The notes beneath the pieces are model-generated. The model did not search any database and was not told the DNA's origin. It was given only the letters and a program-made list of their open reading frames with translations. The position numbers and the translations under genes were made by a program. A DNA stretch of 62,508 bases, counting the filler, from Chrysochromulina tobinii (lineage: Eukaryota): NCBI GenBank assembly GCA_001275005.1. It is 4 parts of 4 records of this genome, joined end to end, with 100 filler letters (N's around TTAATTAATTAA, not from the genome) between each part and the next. Parts side by side here need not be neighbours in the genome. Positions count along the whole stretch, not along the records: positions 32,850 to 56,561 come from JWZX01001071.1; 3 more parts are not named here. One strand, written 5' to 3'. This document shows, one piece after another, positions 5,896 through 62,508 of the stretch (positions are counted from its first letter, which is position 1; the number at the start of each line of letters is the position of its first letter).

Positions 5896-6015
5896 TTCTA
5901 CGGCAGGGCCCGCGCTACCGGACGGCCAAACGGATTCTACAGCCGTGCTCGCGCTACCGAACGGTCAAATGGTCGCCACGGCAGTGCTCGCGCTCCCGGA
6001 CGACCAAACGGTCGA
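5896..6015 (+). repeat. Three degenerate 39-bp (13-codon) tandem repeats at the start of the pol frame
   Basis: Translate as STAGPALPDGQTD / STAVLALPNGQMV / ATAVLALPDDQTV in the RT frame. Confidence 0.75.
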
Positions 6016-9000: not shown

Positions 9001-9373
9001 CTCGCGCGCCCGCTGGGCTGAGTTCCGCCAACTCTGCGCGATGCTCGGAGTTCGACCTCAGCTTCTGGAGATCTCCACGGGAGTTGTGGAACTCTATCGC
9101 GTGGTCATCCGCTACCTGCGTGAACGATCCCACTTGGCAGCCACGGCTCGAGGCGTCTTCAACCCCCACCTCATCGGTGATCAACCCATAGCTCAGGATG
9201 CTGCCTCCAGTGCCGCCGATCGTTCCCCCTCGCTATCGTCCGCGTCTTCGCGAGATGGGGCGTCACGATGCCCAGCTACAAGGTGCTCAAGGCCGCCGTC
9301 GCAGGCCTGTCGCGCGCCTACCTTTCCTACTATGGACCCTACTCTCTTGCTCCCAAGCGCGCTGAGCCTATGA
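5945..9373 (+). CDS. Reverse transcriptase-RNase H polyprotein (true start probably upstream; tail after ~9190 probably out of register)
   Basis: RT motifs DDIKDYFNHL, LGFGLHGSSNLAQR, FFTDD (8102-8116), KWIG; RNase H motifs LFSDAC..GMGGY, IPILEF, LYTDA, HLYGDANILADLISR. Confidence 0.9.
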   Translation: MLALPNGQMVATAVLALPDDQTVDIRGYAEGVAILVFICALTEPLILAHADGFTSAGLLLPAPATPRPQAMRLVSQLCGCIVSSALYLPFMIGQYSSGAMLFAAPVDFAPPPLSIVRSPAARARALSVGAHFVWCTLAALADGPLCDPAARAALSCRMFQPPHSNPLDVPPSAAVEFSFGVTKLRSLQQRPDPDHPRAGAAARALHAATLADAALRSALELEGDDPLLEGWIDRITPLAIGEIPAYLLESLPDFTDARLDDVSLSPVLRPLVTDWYPLPPEQPGAPPEAPLCPKDAFELLLPGGAARLRAWFDHQLRDLTHVRNELARGVAPGSIIRDRPSPIAIGQSEFRDWARGRVWDCTLDRGPCCVVADFHQPPLEIVDRVEVKARLSHYPDQSLVSHLLLGARTDADVELQFVLVPHLTTLPFGFKSVMSEVDRLEGYGWYRSFGAIPFAPMYLNGQGATARKLEPDRWRRTTEGGGPRQATFDAGGIRALSLNEAARIYHMPEHFVSDRRESFLEWLRRRGLPRDNPIPPSDGRRRPTKWPPEVKPTLENVMRDMAVLGRAASRWQTALYCSNDDIKDYFNHLAVATSELSKVGILLDRADGSGPRFISERVLGFGLHGSSNLAQRFSDSLVILYYEDMDAEYFASGAVYSAAELAWLEYRLALQRREGEPCVDIRQWTAPPSERLPAIPAPARLRDIPPGYVCPQLRPYRCFFFTDDAQMFAVGPKLKIMSLRNWRRLTNRMRLRMAIAEKRSLGTWCKWIGVLLIPILGLVVVTRDKILRASAAIGEALADRLEFHAYRALCGLLEHLRSVNLRGRNIMHGLYRPHGPDGASREGPSGVVRCDALMRGQLKRWQYILTDSCGVSVKRALLRENLETLPSVSLELFSDACYADVATPGMGGYLHGLYWYFPVPAPDVPYLSIPILEFLGAAFNVLMFYPHLHHLGSASAPAWVDLYTDALTTARVLAAESARSAVIVEAYQHLIASPEWRSLYGRLRVAHLYGDANILADLISRARWAEFRQLCAMLGVRPQLLEISTGVVELYRVVIRYLRERSHLAATARGVFNPHLIGDQPIAQDAASSAADRSPSLSSASSRDGASRCPATRCSRPPSQACRAPTFPTMDPTLLLPSALSL

Positions 9374-11494: not shown

Positions 11495-14400
11495 CCGCGG
11501 CGATCGACTCAAGGCGATCGTCGCGGAGATCGAGCGCGAGAGCTCACCTGCGATCTCCAAGGCGCCGTCCCGGTCGTTTTCGTACGCGGCCCCGGTCGTG
11601 GTCGGGGCCGAGGCGCCGTCGTGGGCGCCATCGGCCTCGGCGGTGCACTCGCCCACGACGGCGCCCACGCAGCCGTTGAGCACGCCGCCTCTCCAGACGC
11701 CCGCTCCGGCGCGATACGGGTCCGAGCCCACGACGGCGCGATACGGCTCCGAGCCGACCGTCGCGCCTTGTACCCTGGCGACTGCCTCCCATCTGCCCTC
11801 TGAGCCGCACTCGCCGCCTGCCCGTGTGGCTGCGTCCCACACCACGTCGATGGGGGCTTTGGCGACGCCTGAGGCCCACGGGCTGATGGTACGTCAGCTC
11901 GAGCAGATGCAGCAGGCTGTCTCGACCTTCTCGGCCGACTCGCCCACCCGTGCCCCCGTCTCACCGAGCCGCTCCGCTGCGATCCAGGTGAGGCAGCGTT
12001 GATTGCCTCTGATGACCGACCTTGCATGCAAGCGCTCACCACGGCGCTCTCGACCTGCTCCGGCGGCGATGCACAGGCCGTCGCGCGCGCCGCCGTCGCC
12101 GAGGACGAGCAAGCGAACGCCCTCTCGGAGCTTCGTCAGAGGCCCACACAGGTTTCGTCAGAGGCGATCTCCCTTTCGGAGCTTCGTCAGAGGCCCACAC
12201 AGGTTTCGTCAGAGGCGATCTCCCTCTCGGAGCTCGAGCGGGAGACCGTGCGGCTGCGTGCGGAGGCGGCACATTCAAAGGCGGAGGCGGAGCGCGCCAA
12301 GGTGGGCGCCGCGCTCGCGATGGCGACGGCCGACGCCAAGCAGCAGCAAGCGAGCGCGTGCGTGTCGGTCGCGAGCGCCAGCTCCAGAGCGAGCACGCGG
12401 AGGCGGTGCGTCAGTGGGCGACGCGCGAAAGTGCACTCACGCGCCGTGTCGAGCAGCAGCGACAAGCGACGGCCGACGCCAAGCATGAGGCCGAGATGCA
12501 GTTCCAGTCCGCGCACGCCGCCACGCGCTTGACGGAGCGCATCGCGGTGCAAGCCGCCATCGCGGGCACCCACGCCATCAAAGCGGAGCAACGCGCGGCG
12601 CACGCGACGGCGCAGGCCTCCGCCCAAGTCGAGCATGCCGCGCACGTTACCGAGCACGCGACGCAGGCGGCTGAGCAAGCTGCTCATGCGGCCGAGCAGG
12701 TAGTCCAGCTCGCCCGCATGCGAGGCACCTCCCTGCATGCAAGCGCTCACCACGGCGCGCCCGCCTGCGAGGCGTCTCCCTGCATGCAAGCAAGCGCTCA
12801 CAACGGCGCCCCCCCCTTCCCCACAGGTGCTCCAGCATGCCGCCGCGTGTGCCGCCTCGGCCGCCGCGCGCGCCGAGAGTGCGGAGGAGCACCGGCGCGC
12901 CGCCGAGGACGTCCTCCAGCATGAGCGTGTCAAGATGGAGGGCCTGCTCGAGCAGCAGCAGCTCCAGCTCGCGCAAGAGCGACAGGTGTGAACGGATCGG
13001 GAGGGCTACGGATCGCCATTGATGGCCACTGATGGCCACTGATGACCACTGATGACCACTGATGGCCACTGATGGCCACTGATGAGCACTGATGGGCACT
13101 GATCGCCCTCGATAGTCTCTGAGCCTGCAAGCGATGGCATTTGCGTTTGCGCGTGGTCGCAGGCCCTCGCGATGCAGCTCGCGCAGCAAGAGCTCCAGAT
13201 GACACGCGTGGTCCAGCGGTTCGATGAGCGAGTGCTCGCCCTTGAGCAGAGGGCCCTTCGACTGGCCACCGCCGCCTACGACGGCGCGAGCCTCTCGCCG
13301 ATGACGAACCCGATGACGAACCCGATGACGAACCCGGAGGCGCTGATGGGAGCGCACGTGACGCCTCGGCTGCCCGCGCCGCCGCCGACTGCGCCGCCGA
13401 CGACCGCGCCGACGACCGCGCCGCCGACCGCGCCGACCGCGCCGCCGACCGCGCCGACCGCGCCTGTTGCGGAGGCGCTGCCCCCTTCTATTCACATTCA
13501 CACGGAGGCTCTGCCCCCCGCCTCTGCCGCGGCGGCGGCGATTGCCGCCATGGCGGGGGTGGCTGCCAACGGCAGCTACGCGGGCCATGCGGTGGGTGCG
13601 CCCAACGGAAGCCCCTTCGCCTCGACCTTCGCCTCGAGGACACGCCCTGACGGCGAGCTTGGAGGCAGGACGACTCTCGAGCCACCGCCCGCGTGTACGC
13701 TCGCGCAGTGTGCATCTGCGTCTACGGTGGCGCCGTGTAGCGCCGTCCCGAGCGGCGCGGGAGCGCTCACGTGTGGCGCCGTCCCGGGCGCGGCGGTACA
13801 TGTCGAGTGCTGCGCGGGCGGCTACTGCCATTTTGAGCATGGCGACGGTGGCAGCGTGCACGTGCGCGGCCGCGGCGTGGTGGGCTGCGACATGGTCCCG
13901 GGCGCCGTCCCGGGCGGCGCGACCGTCGCGAGCTCCGAGGAGCTTCACAGCGGCGTTCACAGCGGCGTTCACAGCGGCGTGCCAGCTGGAGGGGCTCACG
14001 GACCGTCGTGCACCTACTGCGGCCCTCCTGGGACCGCGTTCTGCTGCGGGTCCATCGGCGCGCTCCTCCCGGGCGATGCTGGCGGCGTTGGTGTTGGCGG
14101 CGGTGGCATGTCAGCGCCGCAGACGCCCGGTGGCGTTGGGGGCATTCGAGCGCCGCCAACGCCCGGAAGCAATCTGGAGGGTCGGCTCGCGAGCCTCGAG
14201 CAGACTATGAACGCCATGAGGGTCACGCTCGCGTGGGGGGGGCTCGCTGATGATCCCGACGGCACCATGGCTGGCGGCCTCGGGTACATGGACGGGGGCC
14301 ACATGGGCGGGGGCTACATGGACGACCCGCGAGCGCCATCCCGAGCTCCCGAGCGCCGTCCCGAGCACCCGATGGACGGGGGGTACATGGACGACCCGCC

Positions 14401-15946
14401 CTCCCCCTCCCTCTACCCCGAGCGCCATCCCGAGCACCCGAGCGCCGGCACAGTGGACTCCATGGCTTCACAGGGAAATGGTCAGCTCGGAAGGGGCGAG
14501 GGAGCGCCCGGCTTCAGCTCGCTGCCCAACGAGTTCGATGCCTTGCCTCACGACTTCGACGCCTTGGCGAATGAGCTACGCGCCATTGCGAAGGAGCAAC
14601 TAGCGATGCTCAATGCGGAGCGCATGGCGTCGCCGTTGCACGCTCGCCCTCCCTCGCACGCGGCGCCTTCGCACGCGGCCGCGCCGCGCTCGCCGCTATC
14701 GCGCTCTCACACAGCGGCATCGCAGGGCTTTCGTCAGGCATCCTCGCCGCTGCCGCCGCCACCGCCGGCAATGCCACCGCCGTCGGCGATGCCGCCACCT
14801 TCGAGTATGTCACTACCGGCCTCAGCGGAGGGCGTTGAGCGCCATGTTGAGCGCCATGTTGAGCGCCATGTTGAGCGCCACGTCGGCTTCGTGGCGGCGC
14901 CCACGATGGCGCCGGTGGCCAGCGGCGGTTTCTCGTCGTCCGATGTGGGTTCGATGCAATCAGTGGCAATCAGTGCAATCAATGGCAATCAGTGCAGTCA
15001 GTCCGATGTGGGTTCGATGCTGCCCGCTGCGGCGCCGATGCTGCCGGCTGCGGCAGCGCCCCCCCAACTGGCTGGAGCGCCGCTGCAGCAGCCTCCTCCG
15101 CCTATGTCGCAAGCGCCCGCAGCGCAGACGAGTGCGGATAGCCTCTCAGCCGCCGTCGCCGCCATGACGGCGGCTGCGCAGGCGATGGCCACTTCAGCGC
15201 ACGCCGTCGCCGCGTCCCGAGAGCTGCCGCGCGCCGCCGCCGCCGCCGCCGCCACGGCCCCCAGCAGCGCAGCGGCGGCGGCGGGCGGCGGCGCATCAGA
15301 CATGGCGCTCGTACCTGAAGGCGATCTTCCACAAGGCTCATTGTACGGCGCGCGCCACGGCGAGCGCCATGGCGAGCTCCACGGCTCGCTCCACGAGACC
15401 CTGCGTATGGTTCACGAGAGTCGCGCGGACGCGCTCGAGCAGCTGCAGGCATCGCAGGCGCGCGCGCGCGAGCAGGAGCGCGAGCAGATGCACGAGCTGA
15501 TGCACGAGCTGCGCAGCTGGAAGCGCCAGAACGAGCGGCGCATGGCGGAGCTGACGATGCGAACCTCGGCCACGCTCACACCGCTGGGCGAAACACGTGT
15601 CCCAGATCGCTTCGGACAGCTGGGGGGGGGCGCGTGCGGTGGGGGGGGCGGCGCGACGACTCCCTCGGCCGTTGGCGCCAACGGCTGTGAAGGCCTTCAC
15701 AGGATGCCGCCTTCACATTCACAGGCTCCCTCGGCCGTTGGCGGCGCCTGCGCCGACGCATCCTGTGAAGGCGGCGGTGAGGAGCCGAAGGAGGGCGGCA
15801 GGACCGAACGTCGCGAACGTCTCCTCGCCGCCTCGCCGAAGGCCGCGCTCGACGTGGCCGGCCGGCTCGGCGGCGGCAATGGTGCCAAGCTCACGCCTCT
15901 CGCGTCGCGCCTCGCCAACTCGCCAAGCTGGCGCGGCTTCGGCGCC

Positions 15947-27143: not shown

Positions 27144-30100
27144 CTACATGGCTATGTACGGCGTACTAGTGTGGGTAGCAGTCATGTGCATGTCGTCCGC
27201 GTCCGCATGATTCAGAAGCAGTGCGCATCCTTTTGTAGGCTTGCTCCACTTCGCATAGGCCCAACCACCCATCAGGGCAGCCCCAACTCCCAGTGCCACG
27301 CCACCGGCAACGGCAAGGATGACGAGTTGCTGGAGATCTTCTTTGGCAGAATAGGGAGCGGAGCCGCCGGGGAGCTTGATCGCTGCCACAAAGGGGGTCA
27401 GGTAGAGGTTGAGCGCTCCGCTCTCCGCATCCGTGCTGCCGACGATGTCGAAGCCGAGAGTGCTCCCATTGAGCTGAAGCACTCCGATGCGCGCAGCAGG
27501 CGGCGAGCTGGCGGCCTCCGGATAGCTCAGGGGCCCCGTGACGCCGTCAACGTCGGCCGCGCGCAGCTCGGCGACGAGGCTGCGGGCTGGTGAGCTGTCG
27601 CTGAAGCTCGCGGGCGAGCCCGCACGAGTAGCCGCGTCGTGCACGAGCTTCACGGCGTCGTAACTGTACGCTGCCCATGAGGACGTGGGCGCGAAGCCAT
27701 ACGCGCGCTCAAAGTCGCGTTCAAAGTCGCGCATCGAAGCGGACGCGCGGACGGGGCTCCCGAGGTACGTAACATAGCCCGTGGCTGTGCGAGCCACCTG
27801 TCGTCCCCATGGTGAGTGCCAGCCGCCCGCCGGATGCACCTCCTCTGTTGCGAGCCACGTGTACTCCGCCGCGCCGTCTTGGGCGCCGTCTCCCCGCCCG
27901 TGCGCGTGGTCTCCGTCTCCGTCTTCCACCTCGTGATGGCCATGCGAACGGCCTTGCTGTTGGTGCCCGTGTCCGTGGTCGTGGTCATCGCGGAGAGGAT
28001 GGTCATGGCGGCCACGACCACGAAGGACGTCGTCGCCGCCGTCGCTGCCAGAGCGGCCCATGCCAAGCGCGGCGGCCGCGGCGAAGACGCATTCAGTGGA
28101 AGGGCCGGTGGCAGAGACGATGATGGTGCGTGCGCCGCTCGCGCGCACTGCCTCGACGACCCGCGCGACGACGGCCACATTCGAGGCGTTTGCAGCGCAG
28201 CCGTCGCCAATGAGCGCTCCCGTCGACGGGTCCGTGCTCGCAAACGTTTGAATGGTGAGGACTGGGATGTGATGGGCTCTCGCGCTCGCTTCGATCACTC
28301 GCATGCCCGACAGCCCGAAGGAATCCTCGCTCGCGAGGATGGCTATGGGAGGCATCCGGGATGGCTCTGGAGCGTGTGCGGTGCGCGGCGGCGATGCGAG
28401 TGCCGCACGCTGCCTCACAACGTCCACGAGCAGCGCGGCCGCGCGGGAATCGGAGTAGATCGTTCGGAACACGTTGGGTGCCACGTCGAGCTCCGCGGAG
28501 GTGGCGCCCGCCGACACGAGCGCCACGCCATGAGGGGCGAGGAACGCCGCCGCCTCGACAGCCACCCGCGACCAGTCGGCGCCCAGCACGGCGTCGACGC
28601 CCTCGCGCACCATCGCTGCAAGGCTCACGTTCAAGCCGGCAGTGCTCCCGTTGGTCTCCACGAGGCTCACGAGCTCGAGGCGAAGTGGCGCCGTATCGGG
28701 CGTTGGCGACGCCGTGGCGGGCGTGCTGCTACTCGCAGCTGAGGGGAGGCACTGGGCGGCGACGCGCGTCGCCTCGTTGAGCTGCTTGACGGCCAACTCG
28801 ACCGCGAGCCGGCCGTCGCGCCCCCAGTTAGCGAGCGTGCCATCAGGGTAGTACGAGCTCGCGAGATACCCCAATCGGAGCGTCCTGGGCTGTAACGGCT
28901 GTAAAAGCTGTAACGGCTGTAACGGCTGTAACGGCTGTAACGGCTGTAACGGCTGTAACGGCTGCTTGGTTTGAATTTGATTGGCCCTCGGGACGTATGA
29001 GCTCGCTTCGTCAAGGCCAGTTTGGTGCTCGGCGCCCATCTCGGCGCCCATCGCAGTCGCATTGGCCCTCAGGACGTATGAGCTCGCCTCCTCAAGGCCA
29101 GCAGCGCACGCGCCGTCGGCGTGATCCCACTCGCCCTCGAGCAGCAGCAGCTTGTAGATCGCCGTCGCCGCCTCCGCGTCGCCTGCGAGCGCGAGTGCGC
29201 GGGCCTGCCCCAGACGACAAAGCGGCATGCGAGGGTGCATCGTTGGTGCGAGGCATTGCTCGAACGCAGCCGCGCCAGCTCTCGCGTGTGCGGCGCGCGC
29301 GCTTGGCTCGAGCTCGCGCGAGCTCGATAGCATGAGATTCGTCAAGCCCTCGAGCGCGGAAGACGGCGCAAAGAAGAGCGTGACGCTCGATGGGATCTGC
29401 AAGTCCGCCGCGTCGGTCTCGAGAACCGTGGCGCGCGCGAGGAGCTCGAGGGCGGTGCTCGTGTTCCCGACGGCCAGGGCCATCAGGCTGCGCACCTGCA
29501 GCTCGAGGGCGGCCACTCCGCTCCCCTCGTGCGCCTGCCCAGCCGCCTCGTAGTGCAATCTCGCGCGGGAGATCACGTCGAGGCAGCGCGCGACACGCTC
29601 TGCCAGGCACCCATCCTCGGAGGAGCACACCCCTCGAATGTAACCGCCGCGCGCGAGCTGCCGGAGCGCCACGACGGCGCCCTCACGTGCGCCCACGACG
29701 GCGCCGTGTTGAGCGCGGCGCTCGCTCAGGAGCTCGTACAGGGAAGCGAGCGCGATCGCATTGTGCAGGGCGGCATCGGCCAGCGGAGAGTAGAAGGAGT
29801 GCGAGAACACGGTCGCGCCTTGCCATGAGAGGGGCAGAGGAGGCACGGAGGTGATCAGTCCACGCCAGTCCACGGTGGACTGCGCGTCGGCGGCGCCGAG
29901 CCATTCGCTCATGAGGGACCAGAGGGCTTGGCGCGCCGTCATGGCGCTGTACCACTGCAGCTGTGTGGTCGCATTGTACCATGCTGCCCCTACAAAGTCC
30001 GCAAAGTCGTCTGGGCCGAGGGCCGAGGGCGAGGGCATCAATGACCAAGCGCGCCCTGCCCCAACTGTTTGCCCAGTCGCGTACGCCATTCGTGCCACGC

Positions 30101-32938: not shown

Positions 32939-35900
32939 TTGTTATGGGGCGCCGGGAGCTCGCCCGACACGACGCGAGGCTTTGTCCGTCACGGCTGGCG
33001 CACCTACTGCAACTATGGGCTCGATCCGAATGCAACGGCTGGCGAGCCACTCCGGCTCATATCCCAGCCGTACTGCAGTGACGCCCCCACTGAATTCAGC
33101 TTCGACACCTCGCGCGCCCCCGCCCCCTTCAAAATGCCACGTGCCTCCAATACCACGGGGCACGCGTCCACATTGGGCGGGCTGGCTGACGTGGTGGCCA
33201 TCGAGGAGTGCTACGACCTCAACTGCATGCGCTGCCTGAGTTTCTTCCACGAGTGTGCAGAGGCATCGAGGGTAGCCCAGGAAGGGCTCGCAGGCGGCGG
33301 CATCAGTGCCTCCAGCGCGAAGGGCCTCGGCTACATGGTTGTGGTCTCCCTCTTCTCGGTGGTGATCTACTACTTGCTGCACTACTTTGCCATCTCTGGG
33401 ATCGGAATGCCGTGCACCACTAGTGCCGGTGAGCGCGCCTTGATGATCCAAATGATCTTCACGCTAGCCTCGTTCGTGCTCTTCGTCGTCTTCTATGTCA
33501 ACTCGGGCTTCCTGTATTACAAGGTTCGCAACCCGTTTGGGACCCTCAGCTTCGCCCTCTACGCCGTCGCCGAGATGTTCGGGCTGCTCTTGTCGTACGG
33601 CTTCTTCCTGGTCTTCATCGGTTTCGTCTTCACACCGCTCTTGATGAACTGGCTATTCCGGCTCCTCGGCCGGCTCGCGCTGCGGGCGCAGCAGTTCCCA
33701 AAGCAGCAGTTCATCAACGAGATGTACGAGGGCGCACTCTGGCTCCCGCACAAGGTGCTCTCCTACTCGAGCTTGAGAAGCCTTGATTGCGTCTGATTGC
33801 GTCCCTCATCAGGTGTCCCTCGAGCTTGAGAAGCCTTGATTGCGCCTGATTGCGTCCCTCATCAGGTGCTCTCATACTCGAGCTTCGGCGTGCTCCTAGG
33901 CACGATGCTCTCGACGACCATGCCCATCACCCTCGGCATGGTCTCCGCCTCGTGCTTCCTCCGCTACGCCATCGACCGCGGCTTCTTTCTGCTCCGCGTC
34001 TACCAAAGGCCCGACCCCATCGACGGCACGCTCGTCAAGTTCTGCGTCCGCCTCTTGCCCATCGGCCTCGTCGCTAAGGTCTGCGCCATGTACCTCCACT
34101 ACGCCGGCTCGCCCGCTCGCAGCTTCCCCATCGATATCCTTCTCGGGCTCACGGTCGGCTACGCGGCCATCTTTTTCGTCGTCGGCACCGACCTCGCTTT
34201 CTGGGCCTCGACTCTGGGCCTTGCACAAGCGCCGTCGCGCGACATTGCCAACTTCTTCACGCACCAGGCCCTCGTGCGCAGCGGCTTGGTCGACTCGTAC
34301 GATCCGCTCCGAAAGGACGAGGCCCAGAAGCTCGAGGACCGCAAGGCCGCAAAGCTCTCTGCGAGCGAACCCGAGCGTGGGACGCGCACGGACCGTGCCG
34401 CTATGGCGGCAGCCGCGGCGGCTCGGCAAGGCTCAAGCGAGGGCCTCTCCGCCCCCCAGTGGCACCAGTGGCCCGCCGCCCGCGCTGAAGAGCCTCTCTC
34501 GACGTGGGACACTCTCCGTAGTCGACTCACTACCCAGTCTCTCCGCCGCTCCCTTGCCGGCTTCTCCTCCGGCGCTGACGCGGACACGGACGTCCCACCA
34601 CCGCCCGCCCTTGCCGCCGACGCGCCGCCGTCGAGGACAGCGCCGCCGCGACGCTCGTCAGTCGCCGGCGCTGACCTCTCACGGGCCCCAAGCGATGCCG
34701 AGTGGGCGGCGCCACCGTCGAAGAGGCTGGGGTCGTCGATGTCCGGCGCAGATCGCTTCAAAAGGACCATTGATGCCGTGCTGAAGCTTGACGCGAAGAT
34801 TGGCACGACGGAGGAGGCGATGCACCGCGCGTCCACCAAGGCTAGCAGCGGTGCTTCTCGTCGCAAGCGCACGGGCGACTCGTGGCGGCCAGTCGTCTGG
34901 CGCAACCCCAGCACGCTGCCAGTCGTGTGCATGTGCCCCAATTCTTGCGAGCCGGCGCACGTGCGTACGACTGACCTTTGGACGGAGCACACGTCGGCTC
35001 GATTTGGGACGGCGCGCTGGTGCCGCGCCTCGCGCCTCGGCGGCGCGACCGAGGTGCACACCTTTGGCAGCTGGGTTGAGCTGCGCCTGTGGATGGAGAC
35101 GAATCTGCGCACGCTCATCTCCGATCGTACGAGCCCATCGGCCATCGGGCAGAGCGGGGAGGTCGCCGTTGGCAGCATCGGGTCAGCCCTTGCGGTCGAC
35201 GGCAGCGGCGCGAGCGCGCTGTACGTGTTCACGGGGATGCCGGTGACGCTGCTTGCACCAAGCGAGCACACGGCGCAATGGATGCTCACAGTCTCGCGCG
35301 ACCGTGGCGAGTTCCCCAACCTGCAATGGAAGGTCCTCGTGGCGACAGAGCGTAACGACTTTGACCACCTGCTCCGTCTGCACGGCTGCACCGACGAGCG
35401 GATCGCGGCGCAAGCCATCGAGGGTCGGACCGACGCTGAGCTGCGCCGCGAGCGCGACGCCGACGGCGCGGTGATCTGGCAGGTGCAGTGCATGGCCGCA
35501 GAGCTAATGCACGGCGGCGAGGGCCATGCCAGCGTACGGACGCGATGGGTTGCAGTGCTACGCGCGGGCGGCTGCCCCACAAAGATTGGATCGAGCTTCA
35601 CCAACGTCGCACAGCGTGTGGACTGGGGCCACCCGAGCCACGCGCACGCCGACGCCGACCTCGCCGCCCGCCTCGCCGGCGCGTACCACCTCGTCGCGCT
35701 CGCCGGCACGGAGCACAAGTGCAATTTCCACGTGATGGCGTCGCTCCGGAAAGGCTCCGATTGGTCTGAGCAGTTCGTGTACGCGGCGCCGTTTTGGCCC
35801 GCGGCGTACCTCGCGTCGCGGCAGGCGCCAAAGGACATGCTCCTTTCGCTCATCGCCTACTGCAATCACAGCTGGACGCTCGTCTTCACGCACGCGACCA

Positions 35901-38318
35901 CCGCAGCCGCGCTCGGGCAAGAGGAAGAGGATGAAGAGGAGGACGGTCGTCTCAGCGATGCCGCCGTGAGCCAGATGTCTTCATTCGGGGCGGCGGCGTC
36001 GGTCTTCCTGAGAGGATTCGGCTTCTCGAAGAAATCGGGCATCACGCCGAGCATGTCGTACGACAAGGCCTTTAGTGTGCTGGATAAGGACGGCAGCGGT
36101 AGTATCTCCGTCAGCGAGCTCAAGGCGGCGCTCGTCAAGGAGGGCAGTTCGGACGTGCTGGAGGCAGAGATCCAGAGCCTCATAGACCAGGTCGATGTCA
36201 GTGGCGACGGCGAGCTGCAGCTCGATGAGTTCGAGACGTTCTGGGACCTCTTCAAGGCCAACTGCGAGGAGGCGGCGGCAGGCAAGCCGCCCACGCCTGG
36301 CCGCTTGAAGCCCAAGCCCAAGCCCAAGCCCAAGGCCAATCCCAACGCCGTGCCGCCCGTTCGCCAGAAGGTACTCGTGCAGCCCACGTGGCCGGCATCG
36401 GAGGTCGGTGCACTCGTCTCCAAAGGTTACACGATCACCACGGCGGCCTGTGGCCCAGGCGACGCCGCGATGAGTCGCGTCGTCGTGGTCGTTCTCACCA
36501 AGTCGCCGTCCACCATCAGCCCGCGCTTGCTCGGCACATTCGGCTCCAACGAGCAGATCGTCGACACTTGGCGCTCGAACGAGACCCCAAATCACCGCAA
36601 TTGGGCCGCTGCGGGGGGTGTCACCATCCGCGCGTCACAGACCGCCGCCGAGACGGACGATGATGTGAGGCTCGTGCGGGGGGCCAAGCTGCCCCCCTGG
36701 CTACACCGCAACGTGCGCTGTGCCCCCCCCCCGAGTGCCTGACCTGCGCCTCCCCCCCTCCCGAATGCCTGTGCCCCCCTATACCGACGCGTGGCAGCGT
36801 GCAGCTGCCAGTGCAGGGCCGCCGCTGCGGCTGCCGATGCCGCCGATTCCGCTGCTGCCGTTGCCGCTGCGTACAATCAAGCCTGCATTGACACGCGCCC
36901 GTTGTTTTGCCGTGTACACTCAGGAGCCCCCCGGCGCGACCCAATTCGCCATCGTGAACGTGCTCGATCCCGACCTTGCGTCCTTTTGGAGCTCTGGCGA
37001 GCTCCTCGAGCCGGGCGAGCCGGTCACCATTACCATCGATCTCGGGGTCACGCGCAAAGTCGACTCCGTGATGGTACTGTGGGGAGATGTCGAGCCGTTA
37101 CCGATGCCCAAGGCGTGGGAGCTCGTCGGAGGCACTGGCGGCAGCGTGTGGGACGGCCCAGACGACCCCCACACGCTCAATCCTGAGGAGCTCGGCCTGA
37201 ACCTTCCAACGAAGACGCCCGGGGTCTTCCAGAGCAAGATGCATGCGCACGTCGCAGGCGTGAGTCACAGCCTCGTCACGCTCACCTCCCCCAAGGATCT
37301 CCGCGTGCTCCAGCTCCGCCTGGTCACACCGCAGCCTAAGCATGAGGGGGGCGGCCGTCACGGCTTCTCCATACGTCGGATACTCGTGCTTGGCCCTTGG
37401 ACCGAAGCGGCGAGCAAGGCGGCGAGGCCTGTGGCGAGCGAGGAGGCCCCTACCGAGTTGCGCATCGATGGCGATATGCCCATCGGCTTGACGCAGCAGG
37501 AGGTGATCATGCTCGAGCAGCTCAAGCTCAACGTGGAGAGCAACGTGCCAAAGCGTAGCAATTGGTCGAAGCTCGCAGGCAGCGTACTTGGAGACTCGGC
37601 GTCTGGGCAGGGCGAGCAGCTCGACATGCGCTCTCAGCCTGACTTGGCGAGTGGTGTGGCCGGCGATAGCCTTGCGACCCAGATGGCATCCGAGCTGCTC
37701 ATCGATGGTGACTTACCCATCGGATTGACGCCGGACGAAGCGCGTGAGCTCGAGCAGCTCACGCAGCTATCCGAGCTACGCATTGATGGCGACCTACCGA
37801 TCGGCTTGACGCCGGAGGAAGCGCGTGAGCTCGAGCAGCTAAAAGCGAGCACTTTGCCGGCCTCGGCCTCGCCGCCGCCGCGCACGCGCGGATCGAGCGG
37901 AGCCAATCAACTGGCAATCAAGGGAGATCAAGGGAGATCGAGCGGAGCCAAGCACCCATGTGCCAGCGTTCACACCCGCAGCGTTCACACCAAGAACCCG
38001 TTTGCCAAGCCCCTCGCCGCGGCCACGGCACCTGCTCGGAAGGAGACGGTCGAGGAGATCGCCGCGCGCATGATGGCGGACATCGATGACATAGCTTCGA
38101 CATCGAGGGAGGCGCGCGGACGGTCGAGATCATTCGATGATGATGCTCCGCCGAAAGTGGTTGGGCAGCGCGACGGCCAACCTTCGCCCAGAGGGTTGGC
38201 GCCAAGTGTGGAGCGAAGGTCGCCGACCGCGCGAGCATCGAAGGAAAGGCGAACGCGCGATGAGCTGTTCAAGAGTGCGCGCGAACAGCTAGAGGAGGAG
38301 GCCGACTTCAGGATCTGA
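32939..38318 (+). CDS. 5'-partial multi-TM (TMC/OSCA-like) protein with EF-hand pair and discoidin/F5-8C-like domain; intron 33755-33865; frameshift at C10 run 36723-36732
   Basis: TM helices; RYAIDRGFFLLRVYQRP; EF loops DKDGSGSISVSE and DVSGDGELQLDE; FWSSG..ITIDLG..VDSVMVLW; three ELRIDGDLPIGLT repeats. Confidence 0.7.
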
Positions 38319-42100: not shown

Positions 42101-45100
42101 TGCGCTCGAGGGCGATGTAATCCGCTCGACCCCACGCTCCAGGGCGACCAGATCGAGTACGTCGGCGGGCGGCGGCGCGCGTTCGGTGAGCTGCGGCGGC
42201 GTGTACTGCTCGATGGGGGCGATGGGGGTGTTCACGAAGTCATGACTGGCTGGGTCCGGCGCAGGGATGGTCATCTTTGGTGGTCCGGTGCTGTCGAGCT
42301 GCTCGATGGGCACGATGGTGGAGCAGAGGCCATGCGGCGCCGCGGTGGCAAGCGTGAACGGAAGGCACGCATGGCCACCCCCCTCCATCTGCACCACCGC
42401 GCGCAGCAGGCTGCCGTCGATCATCGCCATCATGGACTGTGCTCCAATGGATGAAGGGGCCACCATCCCCCCGCTCTCATGCTCGGGGGCAGCGGGCGCC
42501 GCACTGTGACTGAGCGCGTGGGGCGTGAGCCAGTTGATCGGGATGCACATGTGCTGCGTGCCATACGTGCCGCCCATGGCGCCGCCCATGGCGCCGCCCA
42601 TGGCGCCGCCCGTCTGGCCGCCCATGGCGCCGCCCATGGCGCCGCCCGGCAGGCCGCCCATCTGGCCGCAGCCTATCTGGCCGCTGCCCATCGCGCCGCC
42701 CATCGCGCAGCCGAGCGAGCGCAGATGCTGCTGCACCTCCTCTGACGTTGGCAAGCGGCCACAATTCGCGTCGAAGTTCCACATGAACTTGTGCTGCTGC
42801 TCGGTCCCCTTCGAGGCCCCCTTGGACTTGTCATCCTCCCCCCTGATGGCTGCCTCGGGCACATTGGTACTCGGAGGACGTGGCTTGCGCGGCTTAGGCT
42901 TGGCGGGTAGCGGCTTGCCCTGGCTCGCGGCAAGTTTAGCTTGGAGGCTCTGATTGCTCGCATGGATCGCCTCCGTCATTGCCAGCGTGACGAGGGGCGT
43001 GCCAATGCACAGTCCGTCCATCGCCACCGGCACCGGCTTCGCGCGGCTCGAATTGGCATTGCGCGCGGGCTCGGCAGAGGCGCCTCCAGTAAGAACTGCC
43101 GCCGCCCTCGCCTTGCCGACCGCCATGCTCGCCTCCGCCATGGCCGTGTTGATCTCGATCAGGCTCGGGGGCGGTCCTGATGTTGCGGCGGGCACGACGG
43201 GCGCGGCAAGTGGCTCGCCGCTGGCTTCGGTGGACGCTGGCGAGCCCACTGGCATGGATTGCAGCGCCTGCAGCTTCGAAGGGGTACCCGCCTCCTCCTC
43301 TGCGTAAGGGAGAGAGAGCATCGAGGACACCTTGAAGTCGTTGGCGACCTTGTCCAGGCTGCGCTTGGTCGGATTGGCACGGAACTCGAGTGAGCGGAAG
43401 AGGTAGCGACGGTCAAGCGGCACACGTTTCTCACAGTAGTACATAAGCACGTAGGCGGGCGGGAGCGGCCGCGCGCGGCGCGCCCGTGGGAATGCCCATA
43501 CGAGCGGTAGCGGCCCATTCTGTTCCACTGCATCCGTGAGCTCGGTGGGCGGCTCACGGTTGGAGAAATTCTCGACCATCTGGAGCTCCTGCGTGGACGT
43601 CACGCGCAGCGATGCCCACGCCTTGATGGGGCCCACATGAGCCATCTTCTTGTTGACGCACTTTTGCCGCTTGGTTCCCTTGCCGCCGAAACGTGGCTTG
43701 TCCAGGCAGTAGAGGCACGCGCCGCAGTCGTGGATCTCGAGGGCTACGGGCTTGTTGTCGGGTCCCTGTGATGCAAACACACGGTGGCACACAACGCGCG
43801 CACGCGCACGCGACGGCCATCAGCCTTCAGGAGAGTCCGGTGATGGGGGAGCACTCACTCACACGGACATCGGGAAGAGAGAGAGGCGATCCATGCTGAG
43901 GGCCTTGCATACTTCGTGGCATACGGTCAAGGTGAGCTTCACCCACAGCTCGCTGGGGCCCTCCCGGGTGGCCTCGAGCTCAGCAGGGGTCGCGGTGACG
44001 CAGACAATGTTCATGTCGTGCTCTGGGTCGGCGAAGGCCGCGACGATTGGGCCCGGCTCCGAGTTCAGAGTGTCGGAGCGGATATCGGTAGTGCTCACCA
44101 CAACCGTCTCCGAAATGACCATCGCTGCGGGTACCGGCTGCACAGGCTTGAGCATGTTGAGCATGCCGGCCGACCTGCGCAAGAAGAGAGCGTTGTGAAA
44201 CGATGCACATCAGGCACACAAGGGGATGCCTCCGAGAGAGGAGGGGAGAGAGCGGGGTCGATGGCGTGCGGGCTCGAGTGTCTCGACAGCTAGCATACAC
44301 GGGCCCAGTGCTCTGCGTCAGGCCGCGTGGGGCCATCCCTCGGGCCTTGTACATAGGCCTCTTGGAGGGGGGTTGGTCATAGGAAGTGCTCGCCGCCTGT
44401 GCAGCCCTTATGGCAGCAGCTTGGACCTGCGCCGCCGCCTGCTCCTGCGCAAGAGGGCCGTTAGCTCCGCGCTTGGGGTTGGAAGGCAGCACCAATGGCC
44501 GATTGCCCAGAGGCCCGTGGCTCACGGGCGTCGAGTTGCCAGCAGCAGGAGCAGCAGCAGCGAGACCAATGCGCCCATCCACGCGCCCATCTGAGGTGGC
44601 AGTGCCACTCAGTGCTGCTGCCACGAGCACGACGGGGCGGGGGGGGACTGCTGGCAGAGTCATTGGGTCGACTTCCATGAGGGGCGTGACACCCGGCTCA
44701 GGCGCGATCTGGTCAGCAATCTGGCGCCCCTCTGTACCGTAGCCAAGCAATGAGGTGTCCGCCGAGAGCCAAGCCTGCTGCAATGACGTGGTAGCGCATG
44801 CCACGTGCTGTGCAACCGATTCAAGCCCGACGACGGAGGCGGCTGGAATGAGGATCGTGTGACACTGAAAACAAGCACGGGCGCGATACGCGACACAAGG
44901 GTATGCTGTCAGCATGCAGGGAGCAGGTAACGTGCATGACCTGGTCACGGGCTATGCTCGCTGGTACGTAGCCCGTGCTGACTCGGGGATGATGAGATGA
45001 GTGCCGTGCAAACGCACACCTGCTCTTCGTTGACGATCGCTCGGGTAAGGGGCTGAATGGTGACGACGTGCGTGTCCGGAAGTTTCGCAAAACAACCAGA

Positions 45101-45310
45101 CCCGCTGCTCGCCGCCGCCGGCAACTGTGCCCCTTGCGCATGTAGCTCGGCTGCCGACTCAACAGATGTGCCGTAAGCATCGGGAATCGCGGGGAGTGTG
45201 GGGCAACCTTCCATCGGATCGCTTGTTGATGGGGGTCGACTGGGCCCGTCCGCCGCTGGACTGGTGGTTTCCGCAAGCTCCATGGGCGTCGCCTCCAGAG
45301 CATCTGTCAT
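39101..45310 (-). CDS. Large chromatin protein with zf-CXXC and RING1/RNF2-like RING finger; introns 44865-45019, 44175-44298, 43766-43912
   Basis: DCGACLYCLDKPRFGGKGTKRQKC; CAVCLQVL...CMHRFCQECVEKWLRVGRHDCPEC...RRAFKRDVRIDSLI; all three GT-AG introns restore frame; acidic C-terminus. Confidence 0.8.
41158..41456. repeat. 30-bp coding minisatellite (SSQPQAKPMG) about 10 copies
   Basis: GAACCCATAGGCTTGGCCTGCGGCTGTGAC units head to tail, no spacers. Confidence 0.95.
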
Positions 45311-45743
45311 GATCAACCTGTTCGAGGCACAACGAAAAGCAACACGAGTCGAGCACCGACGTTTGATCGCACGCAGTGGCAACCAATAACAAGTTGCGCT
45401 GCGCAATCGCCCCGGCCAGAGGGCGTGGCGGTAGCGCGGCACGCATACAAGCCCGCAAGAGGGGTTTGTTCGCACCTAACCGTGACAAGCGTGCGTCGCG
45501 CTGCGCGCGCGTTGCGGTGCACAAAAGTCAGAGACCCAGATGCGTGACGCGGAGGTCACAATTTTGCAAAACTTGTTTTTTGACGTAATAGACGTTTGAC
45601 ATGCGGCGCTCACAAATCGCTTTTTTTTAAGGAATAGCGCGCCGACGGAGAAATGGGCATGAGATGTGCGCGATGGCAATTTTGGTTTCGTGCGGGAAGA
45701 GGTCACACGTCACGCACTCACTCACATTCACGCGTCACGATTC

Positions 45744-48089
45744 ATGCCTTCCGACGCCAACAAGCCCGCGGACGCGCACGCGCTGGCGCAGCTGGCGGCT
45801 CGTATCGACGCCGCGCTCTCCGCATCGATTGGCGGCGCCTCGCTACTCCACGGGCCGGCAGGCTGCGGCAAGACGAGGCTAGTCGACGCGCTCGGCAGAC
45901 GGCTCTCGTGGCCCATCGTGCGCGTGAGCGTGGAGCGCGTGTGCCGTCCGCGTATTGGAGGCGCCGAGGCCGCGTTGCACGCCGAGTTGGATGCGGCGCG
46001 TGCCAGAGCGCCTTGCGTGCTCATCATCGACGAGCTGCACGCGCTCGCACCTGCGAACGCGCTGCCCGGCAGCATGGAGTCGCGCTTGGCGCTCCAAGTG
46101 GCCGACGCATTGCAGGAGCTGCGAGCATCGGCTGTGTACACGGTGGGCGTCTGTCGCGAACCCGAGGCGCTGCACGCGGCAGTGCGCCGCAGTGGTCGCC
46201 TTCACCACCAGCTGGGCTTGCGAGCGCCCTCTCCGGCGGAGCGCTCGGCTATCCTCGAGTCGCTCGCAGAGCAGTTGCTGCCGTCCGGAGAAGCCGGCGA
46301 CCGTATGCGTGCGACCGTGCGAGCGGTCGGCGCGGACGCGCACGGGCTGTGTGGCGCGCAGCTCGCCGGCCTGTGCCAGCACGCGGCAACTGCGGCGTGG
46401 AGGCGGGAACGAGCGGCGGCAGAGGCGGCGGAGGTGTCGGAGGCAGCAACGAAGGCGGCGGAGGCGGATTCGAAGGCAACGGAGGCGGCGGATGCAGCGG
46501 CGAAGGCTAAGGCGCGAGCAGCTGCGGCGCCGGTGCTCGCTTTGTCTCCCGCGGCTAAAATCGACGCCAAAACCTTCCAGAAGCAATGGGAGAGCCTTCC
46601 CACAGCGGCGACGTGGTCAGCAGTCGTCGGCGGCTCAGGTGTCGTCGAGGGGCTCAAGGACCGCCTCGCTGCCAAGCACGTGAAGTGCATGGCCTCTGGC
46701 GCACAGGCCGACGTGTCCAAGTTCTACTTGTATGCCGTCGAGGCGACGACGAGCTGCCTGGTGCTCGTTGAGCTTCAGGTCGCTTGGCCGTTAGGCCAAG
46801 CTTCCACAGTCATCAAGGGGGATCCGAACGCGGCTGCTGTCATTGCTCCCTTATCAGCCCTCCTCCTGGCAGAGCTGACATGCGAGCAAGTGGTGGCCGA
46901 GGAGCCTCGCGACGAAGAGCAGCACGAGCGGCCGGCCGAAGTGGGCGAGGCACACGGGGCGGAGGCTGGTGGCCTGAGTGTGCCCCTTGGCCGGCCGAGC
47001 GAGGCTGAATGGTGGGCTGTGATGCATGAGAGACCGATCGACCCGCTTGCCTATGGTTGCCTCTCTCATCGCCCCCGATCGCCCCCTCCCTCATCAGGTG
47101 GGCTGCCATGCATGCAGCGCGATCGAGTGCTCTGAGCGCGCTCCGGCTGCCGACGCTATCTCCGAGTGGTGCTCGAGATGGTATCTCCGCGGCCGCGGCG
47201 CTCGAGGCGCTGCGCACGATGCCCTCTGGAGAGGCCCTGCTGGCGAGCTTGATCGCGCCGCTGCGCTCGCCACACGTGCTCGCGGCCCTGGGCGTGCGCC
47301 CGCTGGGCGGCGTGCTTCTGCACGGGCCTGCCGGCTGTGGGAAAACGACCCTCGCGCGCTACGTGGCCGCGGCGGCCGCGGCCAATTTCGTCGAAGTGCC
47401 CGCCGCGGCGCTCATCTCTTCCACAGTGGGCGCGTCCGAACGCAACCTCGCGAGGCTCCTCGGCGCCGCGCGCGCCGCCGCGCCGTGCATCCTCTTCCTG
47501 GATGGCCTCGAGTCGCTAGCTCCGGTGCGCGGGGCGGACACCCGCCGATGACCTCTGATTGCCTATTGATTGCCTTTGAGGACCTCTTGATTGCCTCCCT
47601 CATCAGGTGCGCGGGGCGGACACCACGACAGAGGGGACGATGGACAGATTGCTCTCGCTCTTGCTGTGCGAGCTAGACGGCGCTCGCCAACACGGCAGCG
47701 ATGGCAGCCCGCCCCTCGTGCTACTGGGCGCCACGCGCGAGCGCTCCCTTTTGGACCCTGCCATCCTGCGCCCCGGTCGTCTCGACGTACACCTGCACGT
47801 CGGCCTGCCGGACGCTGTGCAGAGGCGCGCTCTCCTCCAGCATCAGCTGCTCGCAAGCACCCCCGTCGCGTGGGCGAAGGCGGCAGAGCACGAGGCGGCA
47901 GAGCAGGCAGCGGCCACGGACGCGGCCGGCGCAGGTGACGTGTCGCTCGAGTGGCTCGTCGCGCTGACCGAGGGCTATTCCCTCGCACAGCTGAGCGCGC
48001 TCTGCCGCAAAGCGGCGATGGCTGCCCTGCGCGAGAGCTTGGACGCGCCGCGGGTGCAGATGGCGCATTTTGAGGGTGCTCTCTTGTAG
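45744..48089 (+). CDS. Double AAA+ ATPase (CDC48/AFG2-like) with inserted beta-adaptin appendage C-terminal-like domain; introns 47012-47097 and 47525-47606
   Basis: Two GPAGCGKT Walker A; IIDE / LFLDG Walker B; DPAILRPGRLD; insert IDAKTFQKQWESLP...KCMASG..KFYLYA (~46540-46880). Confidence 0.85.
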
Positions 48090-48329
48090 GGACCCTATAG
48101 TCGCGAGTCGGGCGCTCCCGAGCGTCCCAAAACACGTGTGTGATACCGATTTGGATTCATGTTCGGTACCAACGAAGACCCAATTTGACCCAAAGGGGTA
48201 GGGGGAGGTATTCTTTCTGGATTCACACACTAACCCCACGACCTGCTTGAAACGACGCGTGCAGTACGCGCGAAATATCGGCCGCCGTATAGGAATTTCC
48301 TACACGCGCGCTTCACTTTCGCGCCTCAA

Positions 48330-61120: not shown

Positions 61121-62508
61121 GGAACCTCGGCACCGCACGACCCACCCGCGGTGCCTCCCCTCCCGACGACTCATCCCCCCAAACCTCTCGACGGCGCACC
61201 CCTGCATGAGGGGGTACCCTATCACTCTGCATCATCAACTACACCAGCATTTGACAACGCCACAACCCCAAGTGAGGGGGTCGCGTCACTGCCGCCCATT
61301 CCCCACACCGACGAGGACGCCCCCGCGGCACGGCCCATCACCACGGATGAGGGGGTGACCTCCACTACGACTAGCGTCGACATCGCCGACACTGCCAGCT
61401 TAGAGGGGGTGACCAACCTATGCTCCAGTAAGCAGGACAGTGCCGCTGCCACCGAGCGTACCGCTGTTGACTTGTTCTCAGGTTGCGGAGGACTAGCCCA
61501 CGCCGCCAGGCTGCTCGGATTCCGACACCTAGCCCTCATCGAGTCCAACGAGAGATGTGCGACCACTCTCAAACTTAACGGGTTCACCAACGTCGTCAAC
61601 AGCCTACTCGAACACTCCGATCTATCGCAATACCACGGCGCCGACCTACTCACAGCCGGACCACCCTGCCAGCCTTGGTCAATCGGAGGCAGGAGCTTGG
61701 GCGAGGAGGATTCACGCAACCTGTGGGCAGCAACCGTGAGAGCCATCCGCGGCATCCAGCCTAAGGCTTTCCTAATCGAGATGGTAGATGGCTTCCTGCG
61801 ACCTAAGTTTGATACCGCCCGATGGCAACTAACCGCTGACCTCCAAGCCCTAGGTTACCACGTGCAGATATCAAAGGTTAACGCGAAGGACTATGGAGTA
61901 CCACAGTACCGGCGGCGATGTCTAATCATGGGGCGACGGTCACTCCTACCTATTAGGCTACCCAAGGCGAAATCCCCAATCACCCTACGAGAGGCGCTCC
62001 AAGGCCTTGGAGAGCCCGACGGCACCAACAGGCACGAACCCCTTGGACAGGCCACTAGCTACGATGGACACGAGCCCAGTACCCTGGATACGCAGGCTAA
62101 GACTATCAGGGCCGGAGTGCATGGGCCTGGCGGAGGAAACAACACAGTGATCACCGATAACGGACTCCGCTACTTCACCATACGGGAAATGGCCAGAGTA
62201 CAAACCTTCCCCGACGACTACCAATTCGACCCGGTCTGGTCGCACGCCATCAAGGAGATAGGCAACGCTTGCCCACCTACTCTCGCCAAGCAATGGCTGG
62301 AATCACTACTGGAAGATCCCACCGCTGAGGCCACCACCGTTCCCGAGAATCCGCCGCTAAGCCCAGGCGTGGCCGAGACGGCCCACGACGAGGCCATGGA
62401 TTCCCTGAGGCGAGAGCTCAGCAGGCGAGTGAAACTGACCCACATCCTAGAAGCACACGCGTCGGTGCTACAAGGACTACTCGACAACGCCACGAAGACT
62501 TTACTCAC
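61121..62508 (+). CDS. In-frame continuation of gag containing a complete C5 DNA cytosine methyltransferase domain (~61463-62310); open past window end
   Basis: My translation: AVDLFSGCGG (I), ADLLTAGPPCQPWS (IV), FLIEMVDG (VI, ENV->EMV), DYGVPQYRRR (VIII), RYFTIREMARVQTFPDDY (IX), IGNACPP (X); no stop to 62508. Confidence 0.92.

What the first reader, a model, noticed from the sequence alone, without database searches (positions are those of the whole stretch)
47525..47624. Intron-creating insertion with a perfect 18-bp target duplication: type example of a possible new intron-gain system
Seen: intron 47525-47606 starts GTGCGCGGGGCGGACACC, identical to the first 18 nt of the next exon (47607-47624). 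Between them lie only degenerate TGATTGCC-type units ending CCCTCATCAG, and splicing restores the AAA ORF exactly. The same design recurs at 33755 and 47012, and in antisense at 14938 and 37891. Inference: a staggered cut at a GT site is filled with iterated copies of a short template. The duplicated GT becomes the donor and the insert supplies CTGAT/CTCAT branch-like motifs plus AG. This looks like telomerase-like or target-primed iterative copying. It differs from described introner elements, which are fixed-sequence TE copies; I see no terminal inverted repeats here.
Basis: partly seen in the sequence, partly recalled or inferred. Interest (0 to 1): 0.93.

Follow-up and report, generated by a model that had tools for sequence, protein, structure and literature searches.

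The report
Introns built from other introns' ends
In a Chrysochromulina-type alga, many short introns consist of a 10-55-base copy of the start of the next exon followed by a 3' end shared with other introns, which likely means that new introns arise when the end of an existing intron is copied into a staggered break, with no recognisable transposon involved.

Summary
The 82-nt GT-AG interval begins with a perfect 18-nt copy of the next exon. Removing it and 47012-47097 restores one AAA frame that matches orthologues without a gap. In 141 metagenome loci of this Chrysochromulina tobinii-like alga, 98 of 230 such intron ends carry a duplication (shuffled: 0.07), 10-55 nt long.

The telomerase-like reading fails. 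The filler is 3 edits from a filler on another contig, neighbouring introns share private variants (6 of 34 pairs, 0.44 expected), one intron was copied whole 2.9 kb away, and a second, mostly repeat-free intron-end family has the same design (31 of 67). Best reading: a staggered exon break is repaired by copying another intron's 3' end, likely from a transcript. Rivals: a DNA template, a retroelement master, or renewal of old introns at the same site (24 of 71 sites show that intermediate).

Splicing of this intron was not seen in RNA, no enzyme was found, and empty sites are known only from distant orthologues. A published survey lists 0 introner families for C. tobinii. This scan noted the family earlier on another piece of this genome (e1-2577349).

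The parts
47525..47606 (+). 82-nt GT..AG intron, phase 0, in the second AAA domain
   Evidence: splicing inferred from the frame and orthologues, not seen in RNA
47525..47542 (+). duplicated target D, first copy; supplies the GT donor
47543..47588 (+). filler: four degenerate ~10-nt units; from 47546 to the AG it is 3 edits from a filler in L087
47589..47606 (+). family terminal unit with likely branch A and the AG acceptor (commonest terminal type, 159 of 343 ends)
   Evidence: branch point inferred
47607..47624 (+). D, second copy = start of the last exon
45663..48089 (+). host gene: two-domain AAA ATPase, one open frame after both introns are removed
47012..47097 (+). older family intron in the same gene: imperfect 17-nt duplication, degenerate filler, same terminal motif
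33755..33865 (+). two-unit chain, 20-nt duplication with 1 mismatch; an RNA contig begins at 33864, where splicing of the whole chain predicts; another strain has a different chain
14938..15020 (-). antisense repeat insert between 20-nt direct repeats, period 63, in frame in a + strand ORF; no acceptor end
37891..37951 (-). antisense repeat insert between 16-nt direct repeats, period 45, in frame and retained in RNA contigs
12700..12826 (+). GT..AG interval of the second 3'-end family, with a decayed copy of the next exon start (8 of the first 12 nt)

Best explanation
This intron is a duplicated piece of the exon plus a 3' end shared with other introns of the genome, and it likely arose when a staggered break in a transcribed exon was repaired by copying the acceptor end of an existing intron, probably from a transcript. 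Shown: the layout D-filler-D with D of variable length (10-55 nt) starting at GT or GC; fillers fixed at the AG and variable at the 5' end; short microhomology at the junctions; fillers that are copies of other introns near and far; strong bias to the sense strand of exons. Inferred: nicks 10-55 nt apart leave 3' overhangs; the bottom-strand end at the start of D pairs with the AG|GT junction of a donor intron's sense strand and is extended upstream through the branch and acceptor region; it leaves by microhomology at a variable point; fill-in duplicates D, whose GT becomes the donor. Because most family introns are followed by GT, each new one would be a donor that primes at GT sites, so the process would feed itself without element ends. 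Recombination between D copies would then make chains, renew D, or delete the intron exactly. The polymerase (a borrowed retroelement reverse transcriptase or a Pol theta-type repair enzyme) is not identified.
For: 98 of 230 ends with a duplication against 0.07 shuffled. D 10-55 nt, median 22, 36 of 71 perfect. Microhomology D|filler 1.5 nt against 0.37 (28 testable of 71 junctions, 0 of 2000 shuffles) and filler|D 1.79 against 0.40 (61 arrays). The 47525 filler is 3 edits from L087, null minimum 4-10 in 60 rounds. Pairs sharing private anchored 12-mers: 6 of 34 on one contig, 0.44 expected; five private motifs occur in one locus each. In L049 a 101-nt intron, including the other site's own D, sits 2.9 kb away at a site with different protein context and a 9-nt match at the donor junction. 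A second 3'-end family: 31 of 67 against 0.4; generic acceptors 3 of 76. After family ends the DNA is sense-coding in 107, antisense in 8, non-coding-like in 18 and ambiguous in 20 of 153 scored (61 of 214 skipped), against 883/830/1044/243 of 3000 random windows; 135 of 153 are followed by GT or GC. Both AAA sites are empty in distant orthologues.
Against: No enzyme and no presence/absence polymorphism was found; overlapping assemblies shared their introns and 26 of 30 strain proteins carry this one. The predicted extra match between donor and recipient exon starts is weak (2.7 against 2.06 nt, p=0.077). 24 of 71 sites look like plain tandem duplication across an older acceptor, and 29 of 61 arrays without the AG end have AG|GT inside D, so local duplication explains part of the set. 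Antisense inserts (14938, 37891) and a private variant shared by genes on opposite strands in L036 fit a DNA template as well. The two families are not fully independent (15 of 67 carry repeat units upstream). Empty sites were tested for one gene only.
Confidence: 0.45

Rival explanations
1. The same footprint, but the template is DNA: microhomology-mediated repair or a replication template switch copies a nearby or contacting intron, and only events that make an exact intron survive in exons.
For: Microhomology at both junctions; excess of same-contig donors; sharing across opposite strands in L036; antisense in-frame inserts; many filler-free tandem duplications of 45-90 nt in the window.
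Against: Selection alone should leave many copies in non-coding DNA and in antisense, yet they are rare; the fixed AG end with a variable 5' end fits synthesis that starts at the acceptor.
Confidence: 0.2
2. The fillers are 5'-truncated copies of one or two non-autonomous retroelements (SINE-like, moved by a LINE or Penelope-like partner by target-primed reverse transcription), that is, non-LTR introners with long target duplications.
For: Variable long duplications, 3' anchoring, 5' truncation and 5' microhomology are the usual signs of target-primed reverse transcription (recalled). A near-identical filler turned up on another contig in a ~1% sample. A Pavlovales introner family is classed non-LTR with a Chlamys-like hit and 'co-opt 5' carry 3'' (PMC12130899 supplement row).
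Against: No shared long 5' body beside the motif among the loci; no reverse transcriptase or transposase in 40 window ORFs or the 52 longest of 341 coding-like ORFs of the loci; copies are not spread over non-coding DNA; donors are often neighbours and one copy carries another site's exon duplicate.
Confidence: 0.17
3. No new sites: old introns are renewed in place. A tandem duplication across an old acceptor gives old intron, D, filler, D; exact deletion of the old intron leaves D-filler-D, and gene conversion spreads filler variants.
For: 24 of 71 sites have an older family intron directly left of the first D; chains and unit numbers differ between strains; the intron is fixed in close strains.
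Against: Both AAA sites are continuous in distant orthologues, among them a 595-aa gene call on a 29.3-kb contig and a 1089-nt call for 362 aa; 47 of 71 sites have exon on the left; L049, L043 and L036 show copying between unlike sites; it does not explain how two 3'-end families came to so many introns.
Confidence: 0.13
4. One reading: a telomerase-like enzyme writes repeats of one short template onto a staggered cut.
For: The filler is made of ~10-nt units whose number varies between strains.
Against: The order of unit variants is copied between loci; a mostly repeat-free family has the same design; a whole intron was copied; no Rfam match in the window.
Confidence: 0.03
5. Assembly artefact or chance repeat.
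For: The repeats break contigs at these places.
Against: Independent DNA contigs and many strain gene calls carry it; enrichment over shuffles is about a thousandfold; half of the duplications have diverged.
Confidence: 0.02

Closest known systems
Introners that co-opt the 5' splice site from the target duplication and carry the 3' site (Symbiodinium; Polarella classes 4/5 and 6/8/10; bioRxiv 10.1101/2020.10.14.339549, parts 1-2 of 4 read; 10.1101/2022.06.06.494994, passages)
   Same: Donor from the duplicated target, acceptor from the insert, exact restoration of the mRNA, many copies per genome.
   Different: Those have fixed duplications of 3-8 nt and, in Symbiodinium, inverted repeats; here D is 10-55 nt, there is no inverted repeat, the 5' end is variable and neighbours serve as donors.
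Published Chrysochromulina and other haptophyte introners (10.1101/2022.06.06.494994 passages; supplement rows of PMC9860276 and PMC12130899)
   Same: Same group; marine Chrysochromulina families are also strongly biased to genes; a Pavlovales family is classed non-LTR with 'co-opt 5' carry 3''; an Emiliania family of 5 has '10bp terminal direct repeats'.
   Different: The figured Chrysochromulina family has a 4-bp duplication and the opposite design (carries 5', co-opts 3'). C. tobinii is listed with 0 families. I did not see those families' sequences.
Intron gain by repair of staggered double-strand breaks in Daphnia pulex (PMC4202315, passages)
   Same: A direct repeat of exon sequence at the far end of a ~80-nt new intron; later nested duplications.
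   Different: Daphnia repeats are 4-12 bp and the fillers AT-rich and mostly of unknown source; here repeats are longer and the filler comes from other introns.
Intron gain by tandem genomic duplication of an AGGT segment (PMC3443670, passages)
   Same: Duplicated exon sequence supplies splice sites; a subset here (29 of 61 arrays without the AG end) has AG|GT inside D.
   Different: At 47525 the acceptor comes from foreign filler, not from the duplicated segment.
Intron transposition, spliceosomal retrohoming and reverse-transcription template switching (models named in PMC3443670, passages)
   Same: An existing intron is the donor; sense and exon bias; the L049 whole-intron copy.
   Different: Reverse splicing predicts whole introns without a target duplication; most cases here are 5'-truncated with a long duplication. 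The template-switch model is the closest; its original paper was not read.

Membership tests
Introner (survey definition) | Multi-copy introns alike up to near both splice boundaries | tested here: not met
   Alike only at the 3' end; the first 10-55 nt are local exon copy. Definition.
Introner (survey definition) | Insertion creates an exactly removable intron at a new exon site | tested here: inconclusive
   Frame and orthologues fit; empty sites only in distant orthologues of one gene; no RNA joint seen for 47525.
DNA-transposon (MITE-type) introner | Terminal inverted repeats | tested here: not met
   Filler 5' ends match the reverse complement of the terminal 10 nt at best 8 of 10, in 2 of 71; no special fold in 5 sequences.
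DNA-transposon (MITE-type) introner | Fixed short target duplication | tested here: not met
   10-55 nt, continuous.
Non-LTR or Penelope-like retro-introner | Variable duplication, fixed 3' end, truncated 5' end with microhomology | tested here: met
   the feature list is recalled
Non-LTR or Penelope-like retro-introner | Autonomous partner or master sharing the 3' end | tested here: inconclusive
   None in about 0.74 Mb; no whole genome held.
Non-LTR or Penelope-like retro-introner | Copies spread through non-coding DNA in both orientations | tested here: not met
   107 sense, 8 antisense, 18 non-coding-like, 20 ambiguous of 153; simple codon model.
Staggered-break repair introns (Daphnia type) | Direct repeat of exon sequence at the far end, above the background of other introns | tested here: met
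   98 of 230 and 31 of 67 against 3 of 76 generic acceptors.
Staggered-break repair introns (Daphnia type) | Unrelated fillers without a shared source | tested here: not met
   Fillers share two 3'-end families and have identifiable donors.
Tandem duplication of an AGGT segment | Both splice sites come from the duplicated exon segment | tested here: not met
   Acceptor at 47606 lies in the filler; met for a subset of other loci.
Intron transposition by reverse splicing | Whole donor intron inserted with no target duplication | tested here: not met
   18-nt duplication and truncated filler at 47525; one whole-intron copy in L049 with a 9-nt match.
Telomerase-like repeat addition | One short template written anew at each site | tested here: not met
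   Composite order copied between loci; second family mostly without repeats.
Any reverse-transcriptase route | An RNA intermediate | not testable with these tools
   Only indirect: strand and exon bias.

The most novel reading that the evidence does not exclude
A self-feeding intron-gain process with no element: any intron's acceptor end, read from a transcript, is primed at its AG|GT junction by a broken exon and copied in, making a new intron that is itself a donor; thousands of this alga's introns arose so, and introner surveys cannot see them because each begins with local exon sequence.
Probability: 0.4. Interest if true: 0.9.

Novelty: new variant of a known kind. Interest (0 to 1): 0.72.

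Why it matters
Where new spliceosomal introns come from is still open; the leading answer is transposons with fixed ends, while break repair and template switching rest on few cases. Here one cultured alga holds hundreds of readable footprints (a rough extrapolation of 5-12 per 100 kb gives a few thousand in a 59-Mb genome) with donor, target duplication and junction microhomology visible together. That makes the repair, template-switch and retroelement models directly testable against each other, and it shows a class of multiplying introns that the largest survey scored as absent in this species.

Tried and rejected
No whole genome is held, so the genome-wide test rests on 141 motif-selected loci; 10-13 redundant loci were dropped before counts. 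RNA: no joint for 47525 among the 15 of 69 joints shown, with low cover there; a closer look was not obtained, so this is untested, not negative. The look-up of DNA around orthologous proteins was closed, so empty sites rest on continuous gene calls and contig lengths. Strengthening of the new donor towards GTA/GTAAG: not supported (position +3 changed in 2 of 50, against 36 of 860 further in). Longer match between donor and recipient exon starts: inconclusive (p=0.077). Hairpin, hammerhead or snoRNA role of the CTGATGA/TCATCAG complement: no unusual fold in 5 of 5, no Rfam hit. Reverse transcriptase: none by a crude motif scan or Pfam on 40 + 52 ORFs; 289 of 341 coding-like ORFs were not scanned. 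Viral contigs: 0 motif hits, no AAA relative, one unrelated repeat hit. Prokaryote genomes: 12 single hits, taken as chance and not used. Two homologue searches for the L049 gene found nothing, so that pair has no empty-site test. Presence/absence differences between overlapping assemblies: none in 4 overlaps. 12113, 19454, 28992 and 37688 are tandem duplications without family filler and were left out. The unbiased scan was swamped by coding repeats and yielded no third family that I could define.

Full report
Observation. The interval 47525-47606 is 82 nt, begins GT and ends AG, and its first 18 nt equal the first 18 nt of the following exon; with the G before each copy the exact repeat is 19 nt. 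It is not a multiple of three and holds in-frame stops. Removing it together with 47012-47097 leaves one stop-free frame from 45663 to 48089, a two-domain AAA ATPase. All 16 aligned orthologues cross the 47525 junction without a gap, and the 13 that reach far enough also cross the 47012 position. An independent DNA run holds contigs 45054-47606 and 47584-48212. A protein of the window clusters at 90% with a Chrysochromulina tobinii protein, so the host is that species or very close. Among 30 listed strain gene calls for the middle exon (of 42 cluster members), 26 stop inside the intron copy, 4 diverge earlier, none reads through, and one common variant has a changed residue in the intron copy. 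The intron is therefore real DNA and fixed in close strains. Its splicing is inferred: no RNA joint for it was among the 15 of 69 joints shown.

The other four sites. 47012 has an imperfect 17-nt copy and a degenerate filler. 33755-33865 is a chain of two units; an RNA contig begins at 33864, exactly where splicing of the whole chain predicts, though the other half of that contig was not shown. The same RNA runs show a GT..AG skip at 36713-36923, so they hold spliced transcripts. The antisense cases have perfect copies (20 and 16 nt), periods of 63 and 45 nt and no acceptor end; RNA contigs run through 37891 and strain proteins translate it. They are in-frame exon insertions.

How general it is. 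No genome was held. After dropping 10 redundant loci there were 301 unique ends; of the 230 not followed by repeat, 170 are followed by GT and 29 by GC, and 98 have an upstream copy of the next exon start with score 10 or more, against 0.07 in shuffled pairs (maximum 1 in 30 rounds). Counting only the last end of each chain gives 71 of 175; D is 10-55 nt (median 22), 36 of 71 perfect, intron median 83 nt. Translations on each side fit conserved proteins in phase, for example a prolyl-tRNA synthetase-like and an NADH dehydrogenase 75-kDa-like gene (names recalled from the motifs). Density is 32 ends in 264.5 kb away from the anchors and 3 loci in the 62.5-kb window; on the 59-Mb genome with about one intron per gene (PMC4580454, passages) this would be a few thousand, a rough inference.

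Where the filler comes from. The last 61 nt of the 47525 intron are 3 edits from a filler in L087 on another contig; the best of 343 synthetic arrays was 4-10 edits away in 60 rounds. Ends on one contig are alike more often than ends on different contigs (12 of 295 against 166 of 22,496 pairs at score 30), and 6 of 34 pairs sharing five or more private 12-mers lie on one contig (0.44 expected). Private motifs are confined to single loci: 6 of 6 hits in L036 (two strands), 4 of 4 in L032, 2 of 2 each in L043, L002 and L049. In L049 a 101-nt intron whose start copies its own next exon recurs almost unchanged 2.9 kb upstream, where that start is foreign, at a site with different protein context and a 9-nt match across the donor junction. 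A second 3'-end family, around a GCTCAC branch-like core and a CCCCACAG end, has the same design: 31 of 67 against 0.4 shuffled, while generic acceptors give 3 of 76. The two families are partly linked, as 15 of 67 carry repeat units upstream, and the 67 include chain members. The filler is thus copied from other introns, near and far, and is not written anew.

Junctions and targets. Microhomology averages 1.5 nt at D|filler (28 testable of 71; null 0.37) and 1.79 nt at filler|D in arrays without the AG end (61; null 0.40). Such arrays are flanked by duplications as often (105 of 213; null 4-7), and 29 of 61 hold AG|GT inside D (null 12%): many are duplications across an existing donor. Of the 71 sites, 47 have exon on the left and 24 an older family intron. 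Chains and unit numbers differ between strains. There is no terminal inverted repeat, no unusual fold and no Rfam hit. By a simple codon model, family ends are followed by sense-coding DNA in 107, antisense in 8, non-coding-like in 18 and ambiguous in 20 of 153 scored, against 883, 830, 1044 and 243 of 3000 random windows. Two predictions failed or stayed open: donor strengthening and a longer exon-start match between donor and recipient (p=0.077). No reverse transcriptase or transposase was found in 40 window ORFs or the 52 longest of 341 coding-like ORFs, a small sample.

Mechanism. Shown: layout, variable D, fixed AG end, variable 5' end, microhomology, intron donors, sense and exon bias. 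Inferred: a staggered break with 3' overhangs; priming of the bottom strand on a donor's AG|GT junction; synthesis upstream; exit by microhomology; fill-in that duplicates D. A sense template read from the acceptor upstream explains the fixed 3' and variable 5' end without relying on selection, and a transcript as template explains the strand and exon bias (0.45). A DNA template (0.2) explains the antisense and cross-strand cases better but predicts more non-coding copies. A retroelement master (0.17) fits the footprint but not the local donors or the L049 copy. Renewal at old sites (0.13) certainly occurs in part and means that a perfect D does not date the site; against it stand the empty AAA sites, seen as a 595-aa call on a 29.3-kb contig and a 1089-nt call for 362 aa, from collections whose gene calls read into introns.

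Known systems. Described introners of this splice design have fixed 3-8 nt duplications (10.1101/2020.10.14.339549, parts 1-2 of 4). The 2022 survey asks for similarity near both boundaries, filters low-complexity families, and figures a Chrysochromulina family with a 4-bp duplication and the opposite design (passages; supplement rows). The 2025 survey lists C. tobinii with 0 families (supplement row; files 13-14 not searched) and lists small haptophyte families with related labels, whose sequences I did not see. Daphnia break-repair introns have 4-12 bp repeats and mostly unknown fillers (PMC4202315, passages). The review PMC3443670 (passages) names tandem duplication and template switching as models and asks for a background control, which supplies; PMC3296678 and PMC8469720 were seen as passages. 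I found no description of this family in ten searches; subscription papers are missing from that library. Features of target-primed reverse transcription and Pol theta repair are recalled.

Verdict. Observation confirmed; interpretation partly supported. It works like an introner that takes its donor from the target, and like staggered-break repair, but fails the membership tests for both in stated features. New variant of a known kind; interest 0.72.

Noticed in passing
window 46400-46990: The AAA gene holds about 200 in-frame codons absent from orthologues, including a Pfam beta2-adaptin appendage C-terminal match (about 46548-46820); close strains share it. A captured gene piece or fusion.
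   Followed up: partly
window 48185-48245: A short element just after the AAA stop with DNA depth near 50,000 against about 90 for single-copy DNA; a related copy in L032. Unidentified high-copy repeat.
   Followed up: partly
window 11988-12076 and 12986-13162: Two more GT..AG intervals of these families: a hybrid of repeat units and the second family's core, and a pure repeat array with another end and no visible duplication.
   Followed up: partly
window 12113-12234, 19420-19540, 28990-29100, 37688-37840: Tandem duplications of 51-81 nt without family filler; the genome seems prone to short tandem duplication.
   Followed up: partly
window near 47420: 4 of 30 listed strain proteins leave the AAA frame here with one shared foreign tail: possibly another insertion that differs between strains.
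   Followed up: no
window 36713-36923: A 211-nt GT..AG intron skipped in two RNA runs, while one strain's 1535-aa gene call reads through it in frame.
   Followed up: partly
L049 7644-7744 and 10512-10612: Whole-intron copy between two unlike sites 2.9 kb apart, both with GC donors: a rare direct case of intron transposition in cis.
   Followed up: yes
window 155-5308, 5969-9373, 61121-62506: Two long ORFs with no Pfam match and a C-5 cytosine DNA methylase ORF at the window's end.
   Followed up: no
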